From NCBI RefSeq assembly GCF_016903815.1, contig NZ_CP069973.1: a stretch of DNA of 64,000 nt; one strand, written 5' to 3'. Each line of letters opens with the position of its first letter. The first letter of the stretch is position 1. The DNA is from Escherichia coli. GTDB taxonomy: Bacteria; Pseudomonadota; Gammaproteobacteria; Enterobacterales; Enterobacteriaceae. Positions 1 to 45,954 of this stretch are shown one piece after another. The notes below the pieces were generated by a model, which saw nothing but the letters and a program-made list of their open reading frames with translations, made no database searches and was not told the DNA's origin. The position numbers and the translations under genes were made by a program.

Positions 1-309
1 CATGCGGGTCTGAACGGCGATATTCTGGTATGGAACCCGGTACTGGAAGATGCGTTTGAGCTTTCTTCCATGGGGATCCGCGTGGATGCCGATACGTTGA
101 AGCATCAGCTGGCGCTGACCGGTGATGAAGATCGTCTGCAGCTGGAGTGGCATCAGGCGCTGCTGCGCGGTGAAATGCCGCAGACCATCGGCGGCGGTAT
201 CGGCCAGTCTCGTTTGACCATGCTGCTGCTGCAACTGCCGCATATCGGCCAGGTTCAGTGTGGTGTATGGCCGGCAGCTGTTCGCGAGAGCGTCCCTTCT
301 CTGCTGTAA
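1..309 (+). CDS. asnA: aspartate-ammonia ligase, 3' fragment (5' end lies outside the window)
   Basis: Reading frame is open from position 1 and ends at TAA 307..309; the translated C-terminus ([23 protein letters not shown]...[15 protein letters not shown]) is recognised as AsnA; position convergent with viaA as in K-12. Confidence 0.9.
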
Positions 310-3477: not shown

Positions 3478-5346
3478 ATGAGCACTGATAATAAGCAATC
3501 ATTGCCCGCGATTACCCTCGCGGCGATTGGAGTTGTCTACGGCGATATTGGTACCAGCCCGTTATATACACTTCGTGAATGTTTGTCCGGCCAGTTTGGT
3601 TTTGGCGTTGAACGCGATGCCGTGTTTGGCTTTTTATCGCTGATCTTCTGGCTGCTAATCTTTGTGGTTTCCATTAAATATCTCACCTTCGTGATGCGGG
3701 CAGATAACGCCGGTGAAGGGGGGATCCTGACGTTGATGTCGCTTGCCGGGCGTAATACGTCGGCGCGAACCACATCAATGCTGGTGATTATGGGGCTAAT
3801 CGGCGGCAGCTTTTTCTATGGTGAAGTCGTCATAACACCCGCTATTTCGGTGATGTCAGCCATTGAAGGTCTGGAAATCGTCGCCCCGCAGCTGGATACC
3901 TGGATAGTTCCCCTCTCAATCATCGTTCTCACTTTACTATTTATGATTCAAAAACATGGCACGGCTATGGTCGGTAAGCTGTTTGCGCCGATCATGCTGA
4001 CCTGGTTTTTGATTCTGGCAGTACTGGGGTTACGTAGCATTATTGCTAACCCGGAAGTGCTGCATGCGCTGAATCCGATGTGGGCGGTGCATTTCTTCCT
4101 TGAATACAAAACGGTTTCTTTTATTGCATTAGGGGCAGTGGTGCTGTCGATTACGGGGGTCGAGGCGCTGTATGCTGATATGGGGCACTTTGGTAAGTTC
4201 CCTATTCGCCTGGCGTGGTTCACCGTCGTATTACCTTCCTTGACCCTTAATTACTTCGGTCAGGGAGCGTTGTTGTTAAAGAACCCGGAAGCGATTAAGA
4301 ACCCGTTCTTCCTGTTGGCACCGGACTGGGCGCTGATCCCGCTGCTGATCATCGCCGCACTGGCGACGGTAATTGCCTCGCAGGCGGTTATCTCTGGCGT
4401 CTTCTCATTGACGCGTCAGGCGGTACGTCTGGGATATTTGTCGCCGATGCGCATTATTCACACCTCCGAAATGGAGTCAGGGCAAATCTATATTCCGTTT
4501 GTGAACTGGATGCTCTATGTCGCGGTCGTGATTGTGATTGTCAGCTTTGAGCACTCCAGCAACCTGGCGGCGGCGTACGGGATTGCGGTGACCGGAACCA
4601 TGGTGCTGACGTCTATTCTCTCGACTACCGTGGCGCGTCAGAACTGGCACTGGAATAAGTATTTTGTTGCGCTGATCCTGATTGCTTTCCTTTGTGTCGA
4701 TATTCCATTGTTCACCGCTAACCTCGATAAACTGCTCTCCGGCGGCTGGTTGCCATTGAGCCTCGGTACGGTGATGTTTATCGTGATGACCACCTGGAAG
4801 AGCGAACGTTTCCGTTTGCTGCGGCGGATGCATGAACATGGTAACTCTCTGGAGGCGATGATTGCTTCGCTGGAGAAATCACCGCCCGTTCGCGTGCCCG
4901 GGACCGCGGTGTATATGTCGCGTGCAATCAACGTCATTCCCTTTGCGCTGATGCATAACCTTAAACATAACAAGGTATTGCATGAGCGGGTGATTCTGTT
5001 AACTCTGCGCACCGAAGACGCGCCTTATGTCCATAACGTCCGTCGGGTACAGATTGAACAACTGTCGCCCACGTTCTGGCGCGTGGTGGCAAGTTATGGT
5101 TGGCGAGAAACGCCAAACGTGGAAGAAGTATTCCACCGCTGCGGTCTGGAAGGATTAAGTTGCCGGATGATGGAAACCTCCTTCTTTATGTCGCATGAGT
5201 CGTTGATCCTCGGCAAACGCCCGTGGTATTTGCGTCTGCGCGGCAAGCTGTACTTGCTGCTGCAACGTAATGCGCTGCGTGCGCCGGATCAATTTGAAAT
5301 CCCACCAAACAGGGTTATCGAACTGGGTACTCAGGTTGAAATCTAA
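3478..5346 (+). CDS. kup: KUP-family potassium uptake transporter
   Basis: 622-aa ORF rich in hydrophobic transmembrane segments; N-terminal [13 protein letters not shown] motif typical of Kup/TrkD. Confidence 0.96.
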
Positions 5347-5387
5347 CGCCAGACGCCTCCTTTCTCCATAAGGGGGCGTTTTTTGTG

Positions 5388-6095
5388 CACAGAAAACCCC
5401 CAGCTAGGCTGGGGGTTCCGGAAAGCTTTCAGCTTTGAGCCAGTTATTAAAACCCCTTTTGATTTGTTAAAACACCTTGCGGTCTGGCAACTGCAAGTGT
5501 CAAACAAGAAATCAAAAGGGGGTCCCAATGGGGAACGAAAAGAGCTTAGCGCACACCCGATGGAACTGTAAATATCACATAGTTTTTGCGCCAAAATACC
5601 GAAGACAGGTGTTCTACAGAGAGAAGCGTAGAGCAATAGGCAGTATTTTGAGAAAGCTGTGTGAGTGGAAAAGCGTACGGATTCTGGAAGCTGAATGCTG
5701 TGCAGATCATATCCATATGCTTGTGGAGATCCCGCCCAAAATGAGCGTATCCGGGTTTATGGGATATCTGAAAGGGAAAAGCAGTCTGATGCTTTACGAG
5801 CAGTTTGGTGATTTGAAATTCAAATACAGGAACAGGGAGTTCTGGTGCAGAGGGTACTACGTCGATACAGTGGGTAAGAACACGGCGAAGATACAGGATT
5901 ACATAAAGCACCAGCTTGAAGAGGATAAAATGGGAGAGCAGTTATCGATTCCCTATCCGGGCAGCCCGTTTACGGGCCGTAAGTAACGAAGTTGGATGCA
6001 AATGTCAGATCGTGTGCGCCTGTTAGGGCGCGGCTGGTAAGAGAGCCTTATAGGCGCATTTGAAAAACCTCCGGCTATGCCGGAGGATATTTATT
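5388..6095 (+). mobile_element. IS200 insertion sequence (IS200/IS605 family, tnpA-only); boundaries approximate
   Basis: Contains a Y1/HuH transposase gene; a perfect palindrome AAAACCCCCAGCTAGGCTGGGGGTT at 5392..5416 matches the characteristic IS200 left-end hairpin; kup-rbsD spacer is about 875 bp, far longer than expected for K-12; ends set by the expected ~0.7 kb size, not by exact repeat mapping. Confidence 0.7.
5528..5986 (+). CDS. tnpA: IS200 transposase TnpA (Y1 HuH transposase)
   Basis: 152-aa product from the internal ATG (MGNEKSLAHTRWNCKYHIVFAPKYRR...HIHMLVEIPPKMSVS...); HxH motif (HIHML) present; near-identical to the Salmonella IS200 TnpA as I recall it. Confidence 0.93.
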   Translation: MGNEKSLAHTRWNCKYHIVFAPKYRRQVFYREKRRAIGSILRKLCEWKSVRILEAECCADHIHMLVEIPPKMSVSGFMGYLKGKSSLMLYEQFGDLKFKYRNREFWCRGYYVDTVGKNTAKIQDYIKHQLEEDKMGEQLSIPYPGSPFTGRK

Positions 6096-6190
6096 TTCAT
6101 GGTTAATCACCATGTAAAACGTTTCGAGGTTGATCACATTTCCGTAACTTCACGATGGTTTTCCCAACTCAGTCAGGATTAAACTGCGGG

Positions 6191-6210
6191 TCAGCGAAAC
6201 GTTTCGCTGA
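6191..6210 (+). promoter_or_regulatory. RbsR operator (perfect 20-bp palindrome) at the rbsD promoter
   Basis: TCAGCGAAACGTTTCGCTGA is a perfect inverted repeat 12 bp upstream of the rbsD ATG; matches the known LacI-family RbsR operator position. Confidence 0.8.
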
Positions 6211-6221
6211 TGGAGAAAAAA

Positions 6222-6641
6222 ATGAAAAAAGGCACCGTTCTTAATTCTGATATTTCATCGGTGATCTCCCGACTGGGACATACCGATACGCTGGTGGTGT
6301 GTGATGCAGGTTTACCCATCCCCAAAAGTACAACGCGTATCGATATGGCATTAACCCAGGGTGTACCTTCTTTTATGCAGGTGCTGGGCGTCGTCACAAA
6401 TGAAATGCAGGTCGAGGCAGCCATTATCGCGGAAGAGATCAAACAACATAATCCGCAACTCCACGAAACGTTGCTCACTCACCTTGAGCAGCTGCAAAAA
6501 CACCAGGGAAATACCATTGAAATTCGTTACACCACGCATGAACAATTCAAACAACAAACCGCAGAAAGTCAGGCGGTAATTCGCAGCGGAGAATGTTCTC
6601 CGTATGCGAATATCATTCTCTGTGCTGGCGTGACGTTCTGA
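6222..6641 (+). CDS. rbsD: D-ribose pyranase
   Basis: ORF 6210..6641; start set at the ATG giving [22 protein letters not shown] (139 aa), the recognised RbsD N-terminus; first gene of the rbs operon. Confidence 0.93.
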
Positions 6642-32738: not shown

Positions 32739-33188
32739 TCAATTTATGAGCGATATGGCATTGATTGACTTGATGACTGCCCTCTGTATGTCTGCAACCA
32801 ACTCATGTGGCAAACATTGATTAAGATACCCCCGATAAGTCCTTGCTCTGTTTAATCGGTTTCGACTGACTTGTTGTACCAGGTCGGCTTTAGCCCAACG
32901 TATCTGCTGATCAAAGAAATGCATGTCATTGATAACATTACTGGCTATTTCAACATGCATTCCACGATTTAACTTGTCATGGTCGCGAGTGGTTGATAAT
33001 GGAACGACGATACATGCGTTGCCATTAATTTTTCCGTTGAGCACGACAACCAACCTATTTTTTATCATCTCAGGTGGAATGCGGCCATCGTAATACGTCG
33101 TGCTGAACTGTCCATTCTGGCTAACAGGATAGTTACCAAAGTTGCATTCCAGTATTTCACCAACCTTGGGGCTGAAATTAATCGCCAC
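32739..33188 (-). CDS. yifN: PemK/MazF-like toxin-family protein YifN (standalone, no adjacent antitoxin)
   Basis: ORF 32739..33230; start placed at the GTG at 33186..33188 because a strong Shine-Dalgarno (TAAGGAGAGG) lies 7 nt upstream, giving 149 aa; intrinsic terminator hairpin GCCCGGAAAATCCGGGC at 32644..32660 just downstream on the coding strand; family assignment from remembered annotation and weak motif resemblance. Confidence 0.7.
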   Translation of the reverse strand: MAINFSPKVGEILECNFGNYPVSQNGQFSTTYYDGRIPPEMIKNRLVVVLNGKINGNACIVVPLSTTRDHDKLNRGMHVEIASNVINDMHFFDQQIRWAKADLVQQVSRNRLNRARTYRGYLNQCLPHELVADIQRAVIKSINAISLIN

Positions 33189-43980: not shown

Positions 43981-45239
43981 GTTTTGCGACCATTTCTGTT
44001 ATCGGACTGGGTTACATCGGGCTGCCTACAGCAGCTGCGTTTGCCTCTCGGCAAAAACAGGTGATTGGTGTCGATATCAACAAACATGCGGTTGATACCA
44101 TCAATCGTGGCGAAATCCATATCGTCGAACCTGATTTGGCGAGCGTAGTAAAAACTGCCGTAGAAGGCGGTTTTTTACGAGCGAGCACGACGCCAGTTGA
44201 AGCGGATGCCTGGCTGATTGCTGTACCCACGCCGTTTAAAGGCGATCATGAGCCAGATATGACCTACGTTGAATCGGCTGCTCGCTCCATTGCGCCAGTG
44301 CTGAAAAAAGGCGCGCTGGTGATCCTTGAATCCACCTCGCCGGTGGGGTCAACCGAGAAGATGGCAGAATGGTTAGCAGAGATGCGTCCAGATCTCACTT
44401 TCCCGCAGCAGGTGGGCGAGCAGGCGGACGTCAACATTGCTTACTGCCCGGAACGCGTGTTACCGGGCCAGGTAATGGTCGAGCTGATTAAAAACGATCG
44501 CGTGATTGGTGGTATGACGCCGGTTTGTTCGGCCCGCGCCAGCGAACTGTACAAAATTTTCCTCGAAGGTGAGTGTGTCGTCACTAACTCGCGGACGGCG
44601 GAAATGTGTAAGCTCACCGAAAACAGCTTCCGCGATGTGAATATCGCTTTTGCTAACGAACTGTCGCTGATTTGTGCCGATCAGGGAATTAACGTCTGGG
44701 AACTGATTCGCCTGGCGAATCGCCACCCTCGCGTCAATATTCTTCAGCCTGGCCCTGGCGTGGGCGGTCACTGCATCGCTGTTGATCCGTGGTTTATCGT
44801 GGCACAGAACCCCCAGCAGGCGCGGCTTATCCGTACTGCGCGCGAAGTGAACGATCACAAACCGTTCTGGGTTATCGATCAGGTGAAAGCGGCGGTTGCC
44901 GACTGCCTTGCTGCTACCGATAAACGCGCCAGTGAACTGAAAATCGCCTGCTTTGGTCTGGCGTTTAAACCGAATATTGATGACCTGCGCGAAAGCCCGG
45001 CGATGGAAATCGCTGAACTGATCGCCCAGTGGCATAGCGGCGAAACGCTGGTTGTTGAGCCTAACATCCACCAGTTGCCGAAAAAACTGACCGGGCTTTG
45101 TACTCTGGCGCAGCTTGACGAGGCGCTGGCAACGGCAGACGTGCTGGTGATGCTGGTCGATCATATCCAGTTCAAAGCCATCAGCGGCGACAACGTTCGT
45201 CAGCAATATGTCGTCGATGCTAAAGGAGTCTGGCGCTGA
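43977..45239 (+). CDS. wecC: UDP-N-acetyl-D-mannosamine dehydrogenase
   Basis: 420-aa ORF; NAD-binding GLGYIGLP; start overlaps the wecB stop (ATGA). Confidence 0.95.
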
Positions 45240-45279
45240 TACTGATTACCGTGAATGACTGTTTTGAGGGAGTCACACA

Positions 45280-45954
45280 ATGCCCGTCCGCGCCAGTATT
45301 GAGCCACTAACCTGGGAAAACGCCTTCTTTGGTGTTAACAGCGCCATTGTGCGCATTACGTCTGAAGCACCGCTCCTGACGCCAGACGCGTTAGCGCCGT
45401 GGTCACGGGTGCAGGCCAAAATTGCGGCATCAAATACGGGTGAACTGGATACCCTGCAACAGCTGGGATTCTCCCTGGTAGAAGGTGAAGTTGATTTGGC
45501 GCTACCCGTGAACAATGTCGGTGATAGCGGCGCAGAAGTGGCACAAGAGACAGATATTCCCGCATTACGTCAGTTAGCCAGCGCCGCATTTGCGCAAAGC
45601 CGTTTTCGTGCGCCGTGGTATGCGCCTGACGCCAGCGGTCGCTTTTATGCACAGTGGATTGAAAATGCCGTGCGCGGCACCTTTGATCATCAATGTCTGA
45701 TTTTACGTGCGGCGTCCGGCGCTATTCGCGGCTATGTCTCTTTACGGGAACTCAATGCGACAGATGCGCGAATTGGCCTGCTGGCTGGACGCGGTGCAGG
45801 TGCTGAGCTGATGCAAACGGCGCTAAACTGGGCGTATGCTCGCGGTAAAACAACTTTGCGGGTGGCGACCCAGATGGGCAACACCGCCGCGCTTAAACGA
45901 TACATACAAAGTGGTGCGAATGTAGAAAGCACCGCGTACTGGTTATACAGGTGA
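45280..45954 (+). CDS. wecD: dTDP-fucosamine acetyltransferase (GNAT family)
   Basis: 224-aa [29 protein letters not shown]...; begins only 40 bp after the wecC stop, with no rffG or rffH between them. Confidence 0.92.

What the first reader, a model, noticed from the sequence alone, without database searches (positions are those of the whole stretch)
5388..6095. IS200 copy inserted between the kup terminator and the rbsD promoter/operator
An intact 152-codon IS200-type Y1 transposase gene (5528..5986) with the characteristic left-end perfect hairpin (5392..5416) occupies the kup-rbsD spacer. The element ends roughly 95 bp upstream of the RbsR operator palindrome (6191..6210), so it lies where the rbsD promoter-upstream sequences are expected and could alter ribose-operon expression or supply read-through transcription. 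tnpA reads in the same direction as rbsD. IS200 is rare or absent in K-12 lineages, so this also marks the strain as a non-K-12 E. coli.
Basis: partly seen in the sequence, partly recalled or inferred. Interest (0 to 1): 0.45.

Follow-up and report, generated by a model that had tools for sequence, protein, structure and literature searches.

The report
Ordinary IS200C copy behind kup terminator
This is a normal, intact copy of the well-known small insertion sequence IS200 (variant IS200C) sitting in the tail of the kup terminator upstream of the ribose operon; it marks the E. coli ST405 lineage, and nothing in the sequence suggests it changes ribose-operon control.

Summary
Window 5385..6095 is a complete IS200C element. 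It has an intact Y1/HUH transposase gene (5528..5986), the left-end terminator hairpin (5395..5417), the SD-sequestering 5'UTR stem-loop, and a right-end hairpin (6068..6086).

K-12 and 5310 of 5426 complete E. coli genomes have an uninterrupted 166-bp kup-rbsD spacer. Ninety-three genomes carry this insertion, including the published ST405 strain WCHEC96200.

The element sits inside the T tract of the kup intrinsic terminator, 3' of TT. Ten of ten independent IS200C copies examined lie in the same kind of place, directly after a GC hairpin and T run. The window's left junction lacks 2 bp compared with the clean-insertion form found in most carriers.

All 126 bp between the IS and rbsD, including the RbsR operator, are identical to IS-free relatives. 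No outward promoter was found. The element is bracketed by terminator-like hairpins, so read-through into rbsD is unlikely, though this was not tested.

IS200 is not rare in E. coli: 38% of complete genomes hold a near-full-length copy.

Verdict: an already known element in a lineage-specific position, of low interest. The terminator targeting and the high copy number in ST405 (12-35 matching places per genome) are the only mildly interesting side points.

The parts
3478..5346 (+). kup (low-affinity K+ transporter), the upstream neighbour
   Evidence: Pfam K_trans 1.2e-186. RefSeq annotation of the identical region in strain 7/2.
5353..5384 (+). kup intrinsic terminator: hairpin 5353..5379 and T tract 5379..5384. 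The IS is inserted in this T tract.
   Evidence: Terminator-like site. Fold -8.6 kcal/mol, z=-3.2. The empty site GGGGGCGTTTTTGTTTTCATGG in K-12 and close relatives shows the T tract was split by the insertion.
5385..6095 (+). IS200C element: G|TGCACAG...ATATTTA|TT. It is 711 bp if the 3' TT belongs to the IS, or 709 bp with a TT duplication.
   Evidence: Boundaries come from 10 independent copies and K-12 empty sites. 100% identity over 709 bp to other copies.
5395..5417 (+). Left-end perfect hairpin (AACCCCCAGC-TAG-GCTGGGGGTT), the bidirectional terminator of IS200 (nt 12-34 in the Salmonella numbering)
   Evidence: I9; -11.7 kcal/mol, z=-4.35. Function taken from PMC4513863 and PMC5435999.
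5395..5518 (+). Match to Rfam RF01405 (STnc490, the IS200 left-end RNA region)
   Evidence: 146.4 bits against a gathering score of 56, full model length. The literature places STnc490/art200 on the opposite strand, so the strand of the Rfam model is unresolved.
5453..5521 (+). [quoted passage not shown]
   Evidence: Inverted repeat I2, 16 nt, 94% complementary. Fold of 5424..5535 gives -24.4 kcal/mol, z=-4.2. Role taken from PMC4513863.
5528..5986 (+). tnpA, an intact Y1/HUH transposase of 152 aa (H61-I-H63, Tyr125)
   Evidence: Pfam PF01797. Alignment to IS608 TnpA 2a6m at 3.9e-19; offsets read from that alignment place H61/H63/Y125 opposite chain residues 64/66/127, which are the IS608 catalytic residues H64/H66/Y127 as I recall them.
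6068..6086 (+). Right-end subterminal hairpin (CCTCCGGC-TAT-GCCGGAGG), followed by ATATTTATT to the IS end. Terminator-like on both strands.
   Evidence: I8, D2; -10 kcal/mol, z=-4.3.
6096..6221 (+). Native rbsD upstream region, unchanged. It includes a CRP-like site (TTCGA-N6-TCACA, about 6120..6141, inferred) and a candidate -10.
   Evidence: Identical to IS-free relatives L009 and L010. It differs from K-12 by 2 SNPs. The CRP and -10 assignments are my reading of the sequence, not tested.
6191..6210 (+). Perfect 20-bp palindrome TCAGCGAAACGTTTCGCTGA (RbsR operator)
   Evidence: Read directly and conserved in K-12. The operator identity is from established knowledge (Mauzy & Hermodson 1992) and was not tested.
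6222..6641 (+). rbsD, first gene of an intact rbsDACBKR operon
   Evidence: Pfam RbsD_FucU 4.8e-46. All six rbs genes are annotated without pseudogene flags.

Best explanation
A full-length, potentially autonomous IS200C inserted once, in an ancestor of the E. coli ST405 lineage. IS200C belongs to the IS200 group of the IS200/IS605 family, which uses a Y1/HUH transposase and single-strand 'peel-and-paste' transposition.

It inserted into the T tract of the kup intrinsic terminator, 3' of a TT dinucleotide. Its top strand lies on the strand that GC skew marks as the lagging-strand template. The position is typical for this element, which lands directly after a GC-rich hairpin and T run.

In a sub-clade that includes the window's strain, 2 bp (GT) of the terminator tail were later lost at the left junction.

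The element is transcriptionally insulated. The kup terminator and the IS left-end terminator lie upstream, the tnpA promoter is weak and its translation repressed, and a terminator-like right-end hairpin lies downstream. The rbsD promoter, CRP-like site and RbsR operator are untouched. The insertion is therefore most likely a neutral lineage marker with no effect, or only a marginal one, on ribose-operon expression.

Shown here: identity, boundaries, distribution, the intact promoter region and the target pattern. Inferred: mechanism, strand logic and neutrality.
For: **Identity**
- Pfam Y1_Tnp; HUH motif and Tyr aligned to IS608 TnpA.
- Rfam STnc490 at 146 bits.
- 100% identity over 709 bp to other copies annotated IS200C (RefSeq names).
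- Subterminal hairpins at both ends, no terminal inverted repeats.

**Insertion**
- K-12 has a 166-bp spacer.
- 5310 of 5426 genomes have the uninterrupted site; 93 carry the IS.

**Single event**
- 14 kb around the copy in strain PEC011 is identical to the window apart from the 2-bp gap.
- PEC011's junctions equal a clean insertion into the empty site.
- 34 genomes show the window's junction at 100%. The other 59 do not; the 26 of them that were listed all align at 98.8%.

**Lineage**
- WCHEC96200 is 100% identical here and is published as ST405, phylogroup D.

**Target pattern**
- 10 of 10 independent sites sit after a hairpin and T tract.
- A preprint reports terminator-like sequences over-represented upstream of IS200/IS605 elements.
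- In Yersinia, IS1541 sits between pheL, whose leader ends in a terminator hairpin and U run in E. coli, and pheA.

**Insulation**
- No promoter-like site; right-end and kup terminator-like sites found.
- Literature on the weak promoter and the left-end terminator that stops about 85% of transcripts.

**Promoter and operon**
- The rbsD upstream region is identical to IS-free relatives.
- The rbs operon is annotated intact.

**Strand**
- GC skew is positive across the window.
Against: - No expression data exist for this locus, so neutrality is an inference.
- The simple promoter scan also misses the native CRP-dependent rbsD promoter. Its silence therefore does not exclude weak outward promoters.
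- The TT at both junctions leaves the exact ends ambiguous: 711 bp with no duplication, or 709 bp with a 2-bp duplication.
- The target pattern rests on 10 sites taken from a similarity ranking, not on a full census.
- Monophyly of the 93 carriers and of the 34 with the 2-bp deletion was not shown by a phylogeny.
Confidence: 0.92

Rival explanations
1. The IS200C copy alters ribose-operon expression. It could supply read-through or outward transcription into rbsD, or it could change the DNA upstream of the CRP site. Because rbsD mRNA has been reported to lower RpoS translation, it might thereby also affect RpoS.
For: - tnpA is co-oriented with rbsD, and the IS end lies about 96 bp upstream of the operator.
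- The native IS200 3' terminator is described as weak.
- rbsD mRNA is reported to lower RpoS translation, so small expression changes could matter.
- The insertion is retained in all 93 carriers.
Against: - No promoter-like site was found in 5250..6300, and the right-end hairpin plus T-rich tail scores as terminator-like.
- The tnpA promoter is weak and the left-end hairpin stops about 85% of incoming transcripts.
- The 126 bp upstream of rbsD, including the CRP-like site and the operator, are identical to IS-free relatives.
- In the empty site the same position is already occupied by the kup terminator, so no promoter-upstream element is displaced.
Confidence: 0.06
2. The kup-rbsD site is a recurrent insertion hot spot. 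On this view the 93 genomes, or the two junction variants, reflect independent IS200C insertions rather than one inherited event followed by a 2-bp deletion.
For: - IS200C repeatedly chooses terminator T tracts.
- Two different left junctions exist.
- E. coli B independently carries an IS150 next to the rbs operon.
Against: - The right junction is identical in both variants.
- The flanking 14 kb are identical between the PEC011 copy and the window apart from the 2-bp gap.
- The window's left flank (GCGTTTTTT) cannot be derived from the known empty site by a simple insertion, but it follows from the other variant by deleting GT.
Confidence: 0.02

Closest known systems
IS200 of Salmonella enterica / IS200C of E. 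coli (ISfinder; IS200 group of the IS200/IS605 family)
   Same: - Length is about 707-711 bp, with a single tnpA gene encoding a Y1/HUH transposase.
- The left-end terminator hairpin lies at nt ~11-33 and the SD-sequestering stem-loop at nt ~69-137.
- The STnc490/art200 region is present.
- There is a right-end hairpin and there are no terminal inverted repeats.
- RefSeq names the protein an IS200C family transposase.
   Different: Nothing about the element itself differs. Only its location is particular: the kup terminator tail, specific to 93 of 5426 complete genomes, with a 2-bp deletion at the left junction in 34 of them.
IS608 (Helicobacter pylori) and ISDra2 (Deinococcus), the mechanistic models of the family
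   Same: - The TnpA is homologous (2a6m 3.9e-19, 2xm3 1.9e-16), with aligned HUH and Tyr.
- Both ends carry subterminal hairpins, and insertion occurs 3' of a short target without obvious duplication.
- The top strand lies on the inferred lagging-strand template.
   Different: - There is no tnpB.
- The target appears to be TT within a T tract after a hairpin, rather than TTAC or TTGAT.
- The guide/cleavage-site pairing for IS200 was not tested here.
IS150 adjacent to the rbs operon in E. coli B (REL606)
   Same: An IS sits next to the rbs operon in a particular E. coli lineage.
   Different: - It belongs to a different IS family (IS3).
- IS150 drives high-frequency rbs deletions in the long-term evolution experiment.
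- In the strain 7/2 annotation of this region all six rbs genes are intact, and IS200 is reported to transpose very rarely.

Membership tests
IS200/IS605 family, IS200 group (IS200C) | Encodes a Y1 (HUH) transposase, Pfam PF01797, with an HUH motif and a catalytic tyrosine | tested here: met
   PF01797 E=3.8e-38, covering profile positions 2-121 of 121. Offsets in the alignment place H61-I-H63 and Y125 opposite residues 64/66/127 of IS608 TnpA 2a6m.
IS200/IS605 family, IS200 group (IS200C) | Nucleotide identity to IS200 over the whole element, including the non-coding ends | tested here: met
   709 of 709 bp identical to other copies annotated IS200C. Rfam STnc490 (IS200 left end) at 146 bits against a gathering score of 56.
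IS200/IS605 family, IS200 group (IS200C) | No terminal inverted repeats; subterminal imperfect or perfect hairpins at the left and right ends | tested here: met
   Left-end hairpin 5395..5417 and right-end hairpin 6068..6086, both with z about -4.3. The two hairpin regions are direct repeats of each other at 78% identity (D2), not inverted termini.
IS200/IS605 family, IS200 group (IS200C) | Insertion 3' of a short target sequence without target-site duplication | tested here: inconclusive
   Five filled sites were compared with empty sites. All fit insertion 3' of TT with no duplication if the IS ends in ...ATATTTATT; one of them (L008) additionally needs one extra T. A 709-bp element with a 2-bp TT duplication fits equally well.
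IS200/IS605 family, IS200 group (IS200C) | Size about 0.7 kb, tnpA only (no tnpB) | tested here: met
   709-711 bp, with tnpA as the only credible ORF.
IS200/IS605 family, IS200 group (IS200C) | Single-strand 'peel-and-paste' transposition coupled to the lagging-strand template | not testable with these tools
   The only available observation is consistent: the IS top strand lies on the + strand, and GC skew is positive across the window.
IS elements that activate a neighbouring gene (outward or hybrid promoter, read-through) | An outward-facing promoter, or unterminated transposase transcription reaching the neighbouring gene | tested here: not met
   No promoter-like site in 5250..6300, and a terminator-like hairpin plus T-rich tail at the right end. 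This is a sequence-only test; transcription was not measured.

The most novel reading that the evidence does not exclude
IS200C, usually described as essentially immobile, has been active recently in the ST405 lineage. Carriers hold 12-35 matching places per genome, and at least one other copy in the same genome is identical to this one.

It may choose its targets by structure. It inserts 3' of TT in the T tract that follows a GC-rich terminator hairpin. That arrangement (hairpin, then 5-9 T-rich nt ending in TT) resembles its own right end (hairpin, then ATATTTATT). The kup copy would be one product of this terminator-mimicry targeting, which also shields tnpA from incoming transcription.
Probability: 0.35. 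Interest if true: 0.4.

Novelty: already known. Interest (0 to 1): 0.15.

Why it matters
The finding matters little by itself. It is a correctly recognised copy of a long-known IS in a lineage-specific site, usable as a marker for ST405-type strains. The 2-bp junction variant could mark a sub-clade.

It would matter more under two conditions:
- The insertion measurably changed rbs operon or rbsD-mRNA levels. No sequence evidence points that way.
- The consistent insertion into terminator T tracts were developed into a defined target rule for IS200. That rule would explain why IS200 copies are so well insulated and so rarely harmful.

Tried and rejected
- **Ends from K-12 alone.** The K-12 alignment left the ends ambiguous, because the window's T tract differs from the empty site. 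Ten other copies and K-12 or near-relative empty sites resolved this.
- **Ysr202 hit.** The Rfam match at 6063..6117 on the - strand scores 28.5 bits against a gathering score of 315. It is only the right-end hairpin matching a terminator. Rejected.
- **Other ORFs.** The longer TTG-initiated ORF (5477..5986, 169 aa) and the antisense ORF 5546..5911 (121 aa) were rejected. RefSeq uses ATG 5528, which has a GGGGG Shine-Dalgarno sequence upstream, and the Pfam domain starts at residue 11 of the 152-aa product.
- **Independent insertions.** Independent events for the two junction variants were rejected because the flanks and the right junction are identical.
- **Promoter scan.** It found nothing. 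It also misses the native rbsD promoter, so this is weak evidence only.
- **Literature searches.**
  - No explicit statement that K-12 lacks IS200 was found.
  - No prior description of IS200 in ST405 or at kup-rbsD was found.
  - K-12's lack of IS200 therefore rests on established knowledge (Lam & Roth 1983; the K-12 IS inventory of Blattner et al. 1997), not on a test here.
- **rbsD promoter coordinates.** The papers searched did not give the rbsD transcription start or CRP site positions. Those assignments are my own reading of the sequence.

Full report
**What is in the sequence**

The kup stop codon ends at 5346 and rbsD starts at 6222, leaving an 875-bp spacer. The corresponding K-12 spacer is 166 bp.

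The extra DNA contains one credible ORF, 5528..5986 on the + strand (152 codons). It matches Pfam Y1_Tnp, 'Transposase IS200 like', over the whole profile at E=3.8e-38. RefSeq annotates the same ORF in identical genomes as an IS200/IS605-like element IS200C family transposase, WP_000526135.1.

The protein aligns to the solved TnpA proteins of IS608 (2a6m, 3.9e-19) and ISDra2 (2xm3, 1.9e-16). The offsets in that alignment place its H61-I-H63 motif and Tyr125 opposite residues 64, 66 and 127 of IS608 TnpA, the catalytic residues as I recall them. The gene therefore looks intact.

**Non-coding parts**

- A perfect hairpin, AACCCCCAGC-TAG-GCTGGGGGTT, lies at 5395..5417. No shuffle contained it. 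It folds at -11.7 kcal/mol with z=-4.35.
- A long stem-loop at 5453..5521 pairs the region just upstream of the start codon.
- These correspond to the two left-end inverted repeats described for Salmonella IS200: the terminator at nt 12-34 and the SD-sequestering stem-loop at nt 69-138 (PMC4513863).
- Rfam RF01405 (STnc490) matches 5395..5518 over its full length at 146 bits, against a gathering score of 56.
- Near the other end a second hairpin, CCTCCGGC-TAT-GCCGGAGG, lies at 6068..6086 and is followed by ATATTTATT.
- The two hairpin regions are direct repeats of each other at 78% identity (D2). There are no terminal inverted repeats. This is the architecture of the IS200/IS605 family.

**It is an insertion, and where it ends**

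A 380-bp query made of the two flanks joined together is matched as one uninterrupted piece in 5310 of 5426 complete E. coli genomes. The insertion with both flanks is present in 93 genomes.

The 709-bp core is 100% identical to copies elsewhere, including another copy in the same genome as the best match (H31).

To fix the ends I took copies at ten independent sites and, for five of them, the empty site in K-12 or in IS-free relatives. Every copy reads ...TT|GTGCACAGAAAACCCCC...GGAGGATATTTA|TT.... The empty sites fit either of two descriptions:
- a 711-bp element, G...ATATTTATT, inserted 3' of TT with no duplication;
- a 709-bp element with a 2-bp TT duplication.

The sequence cannot separate these two. 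In window coordinates the element is 5385..6095, or 5385..6093 under the second description.

**A wrinkle at the left junction**

The empty site is GGGGGCG-TTTTTGTTTT-CATGG in K-12 and in two close IS-free relatives.
- Strain PEC011 has GCGTTTTTGTT|IS|TTCATGG, a clean insertion.
- The window has GCGTTTTTT|IS|TTCATGG, which is the same minus GT.

The 14 kb around the PEC011 copy are otherwise identical to the window. This is therefore one insertion event followed by a 2-bp deletion, not two events.

Of the 93 carriers, 34 have the window's junction at 100%. The other 59 do not, and the 26 of them that were listed all align at 98.8%. At least 25 genomes match the PEC011 form exactly.

**Lineage**

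The region is 100% identical in strains such as WCHEC96200 and WCHEC4533. WCHEC96200 is published as ST405, phylogroup D (PMC5762679). The window is collinear with strain 7/2: asnA-viaA-ravA-kup-IS200C-rbsDACBKR-mdtD-yieP-rrn operon-ilv-rep-rho-ECA cluster-hemYXDC-cyaA.

**Why it is at this spot**

The insertion lies inside the T tract of the kup intrinsic terminator (hairpin 5353..5379). The same holds for all ten independent sites examined: the sites next to pheP/ybdG, rplT, ymgL, ldrD/bcsG, brnQ-proY, yfeX, an integrase gene, hypT and sbcB, plus kup. In each, the left end abuts the T run of a strong GC hairpin (predicted -17 to -24 kcal/mol for the nine sites that were folded), 5-9 nt after the hairpin foot.

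This agrees with two published observations:
- In Yersinia the ortholog IS1541 sits between pheL and pheA. In E. coli the pheL leader ends in a terminator hairpin and a run of Us.

The target (hairpin, then a T-rich tail ending in TT) resembles the element's own right end (hairpin, then ATATTTATT). Both IS hairpins are preceded by AAAA, which could pair with T-rich cleavage sites as the guide sequences do in IS608. This is my inference and was not tested.

GC skew is positive across the window. The + strand, which carries the IS top strand, is therefore the lagging-strand template. That is the orientation the family prefers, according to established knowledge of IS608 and ISDra2.

**Effect on the ribose operon**

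- The 126 bp between the IS and rbsD (6096..6221) are identical to those of IS-free relatives. They differ from K-12 at two positions unrelated to the IS.
- This stretch holds the perfect palindrome TCAGCGAAACGTTTCGCTGA at 6191..6210 and, by my reading, a CRP-like site at about 6120..6141 and a -10-like TAAACT at 6180..6185.
- In the empty site the position now occupied by the IS was directly next to the kup terminator. No promoter-upstream element has been displaced.
- The kup terminator keeps its hairpin and six T's.
- The IS left-end hairpin is reported to be a bidirectional terminator that stops about 85% of incoming transcripts. The tnpA promoter is weak, and tnpA is further repressed by art200, Hfq and the 5'UTR structure.
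- The right-end hairpin with its T-rich tail scores as terminator-like on both strands, and no sigma-70-like promoter was found in 5250..6300. The scan also misses the native rbsD promoter, so this is weak evidence.
- All six rbs genes are annotated intact. This contrasts with E. coli B, where an adjacent IS150 promotes rbs deletions.

I conclude that read-through or activation is unlikely. This remains an inference, because no expression data could be consulted.

**Frequency of IS200**

Any part of the element is found in 3096 of 5426 complete genomes. A copy covering at least 80% is found in 2063 of them, or 38%. IS200 is therefore common in the species.

Genomes with any IS200 match hold a median of one matching place. 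The kup-insertion carriers listed hold 12-35 places each, and at least one other copy in strain 7/2 is identical to this one. The literature calls IS200 essentially immobile. It also records high copy numbers of identical paralogs in S. Typhi (26 copies) and Y. pestis (more than 50 copies), so the ST405 numbers are within the known range.

I could not test K-12 directly. Its lack of IS200 rests on established knowledge.

**Verdict**

The core interpretation, an IS200 copy inserted between the kup terminator hairpin and the rbsD promoter in a non-K-12 strain, is right. The regulatory speculation is not supported by the sequence, and the remark that IS200 is rare is inaccurate for the species. 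This is a known element in a lineage-specific place. Interest is low.

Noticed in passing
window 5379..5386; L004 (strain PEC011) 50..62: The left junction is polymorphic among carriers. 34 of 93 genomes, including the window, read GCGTTTTTT|G. The rest do not; those examined read GCGTTTTTGTT|G, the clean-insertion form. This is a 2-bp GT deletion in the kup terminator tail and a possible sub-clade marker.
   Followed up: yes
loci L003-L008 and L016-L020, first 60-70 bases; window 5353..5384: Ten of ten independent IS200C copies abut the T tract of a strong GC-rich terminator-like hairpin, 5-9 nt from its foot and always 3' of TT. The target resembles the element's own right end (hairpin plus ATATTTATT).
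   Followed up: partly
E. coli genome hits (for example NZ_CP173528.1 with 35 places, NZ_CP023820.1 with 22): Genomes carrying the kup insertion (the ST405 type) hold 12-35 IS200C-matching places. The median is 1 among genomes with any match. At least one other copy in strain 7/2 is 100% identical, and counts differ between close relatives. This suggests recent or continuing transposition of an IS usually called immobile.
   Followed up: partly
window 45239..45280: In the enterobacterial common antigen cluster, wecC is followed directly by rffC. The rffG-rffH genes that lie between them in K-12 (from memory) are missing. Only 116 of 5426 complete genomes share this junction; in the others listed, a thymidylyltransferase gene precedes rffC.
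   Followed up: partly
window 5395..5518: The Rfam STnc490 model matches the tnpA-sense (+) strand, with the terminator hairpin at its 5' end. The literature describes STnc490/art200 as antisense to the tnpA 5'UTR. On the - strand the hairpin is followed by TTTTCTGTG, as expected for the 3' end of an sRNA. The Rfam model may be built in the reverse orientation.
   Followed up: no
window 32739..33188 (- strand): A PemK/MazF-family toxin gene is annotated as intact between ppiC and rep. From memory, K-12 has only a pseudogene (yifN) at this position.
   Followed up: no
one search counts: About 8 genomes match the kup-rbsD flanks but have neither the uninterrupted spacer nor the IS200C insertion. 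The site is disrupted in some other way there. One candidate is the IS150 reported next to the rbs operon in E. coli B, but this was not checked.
   Followed up: no
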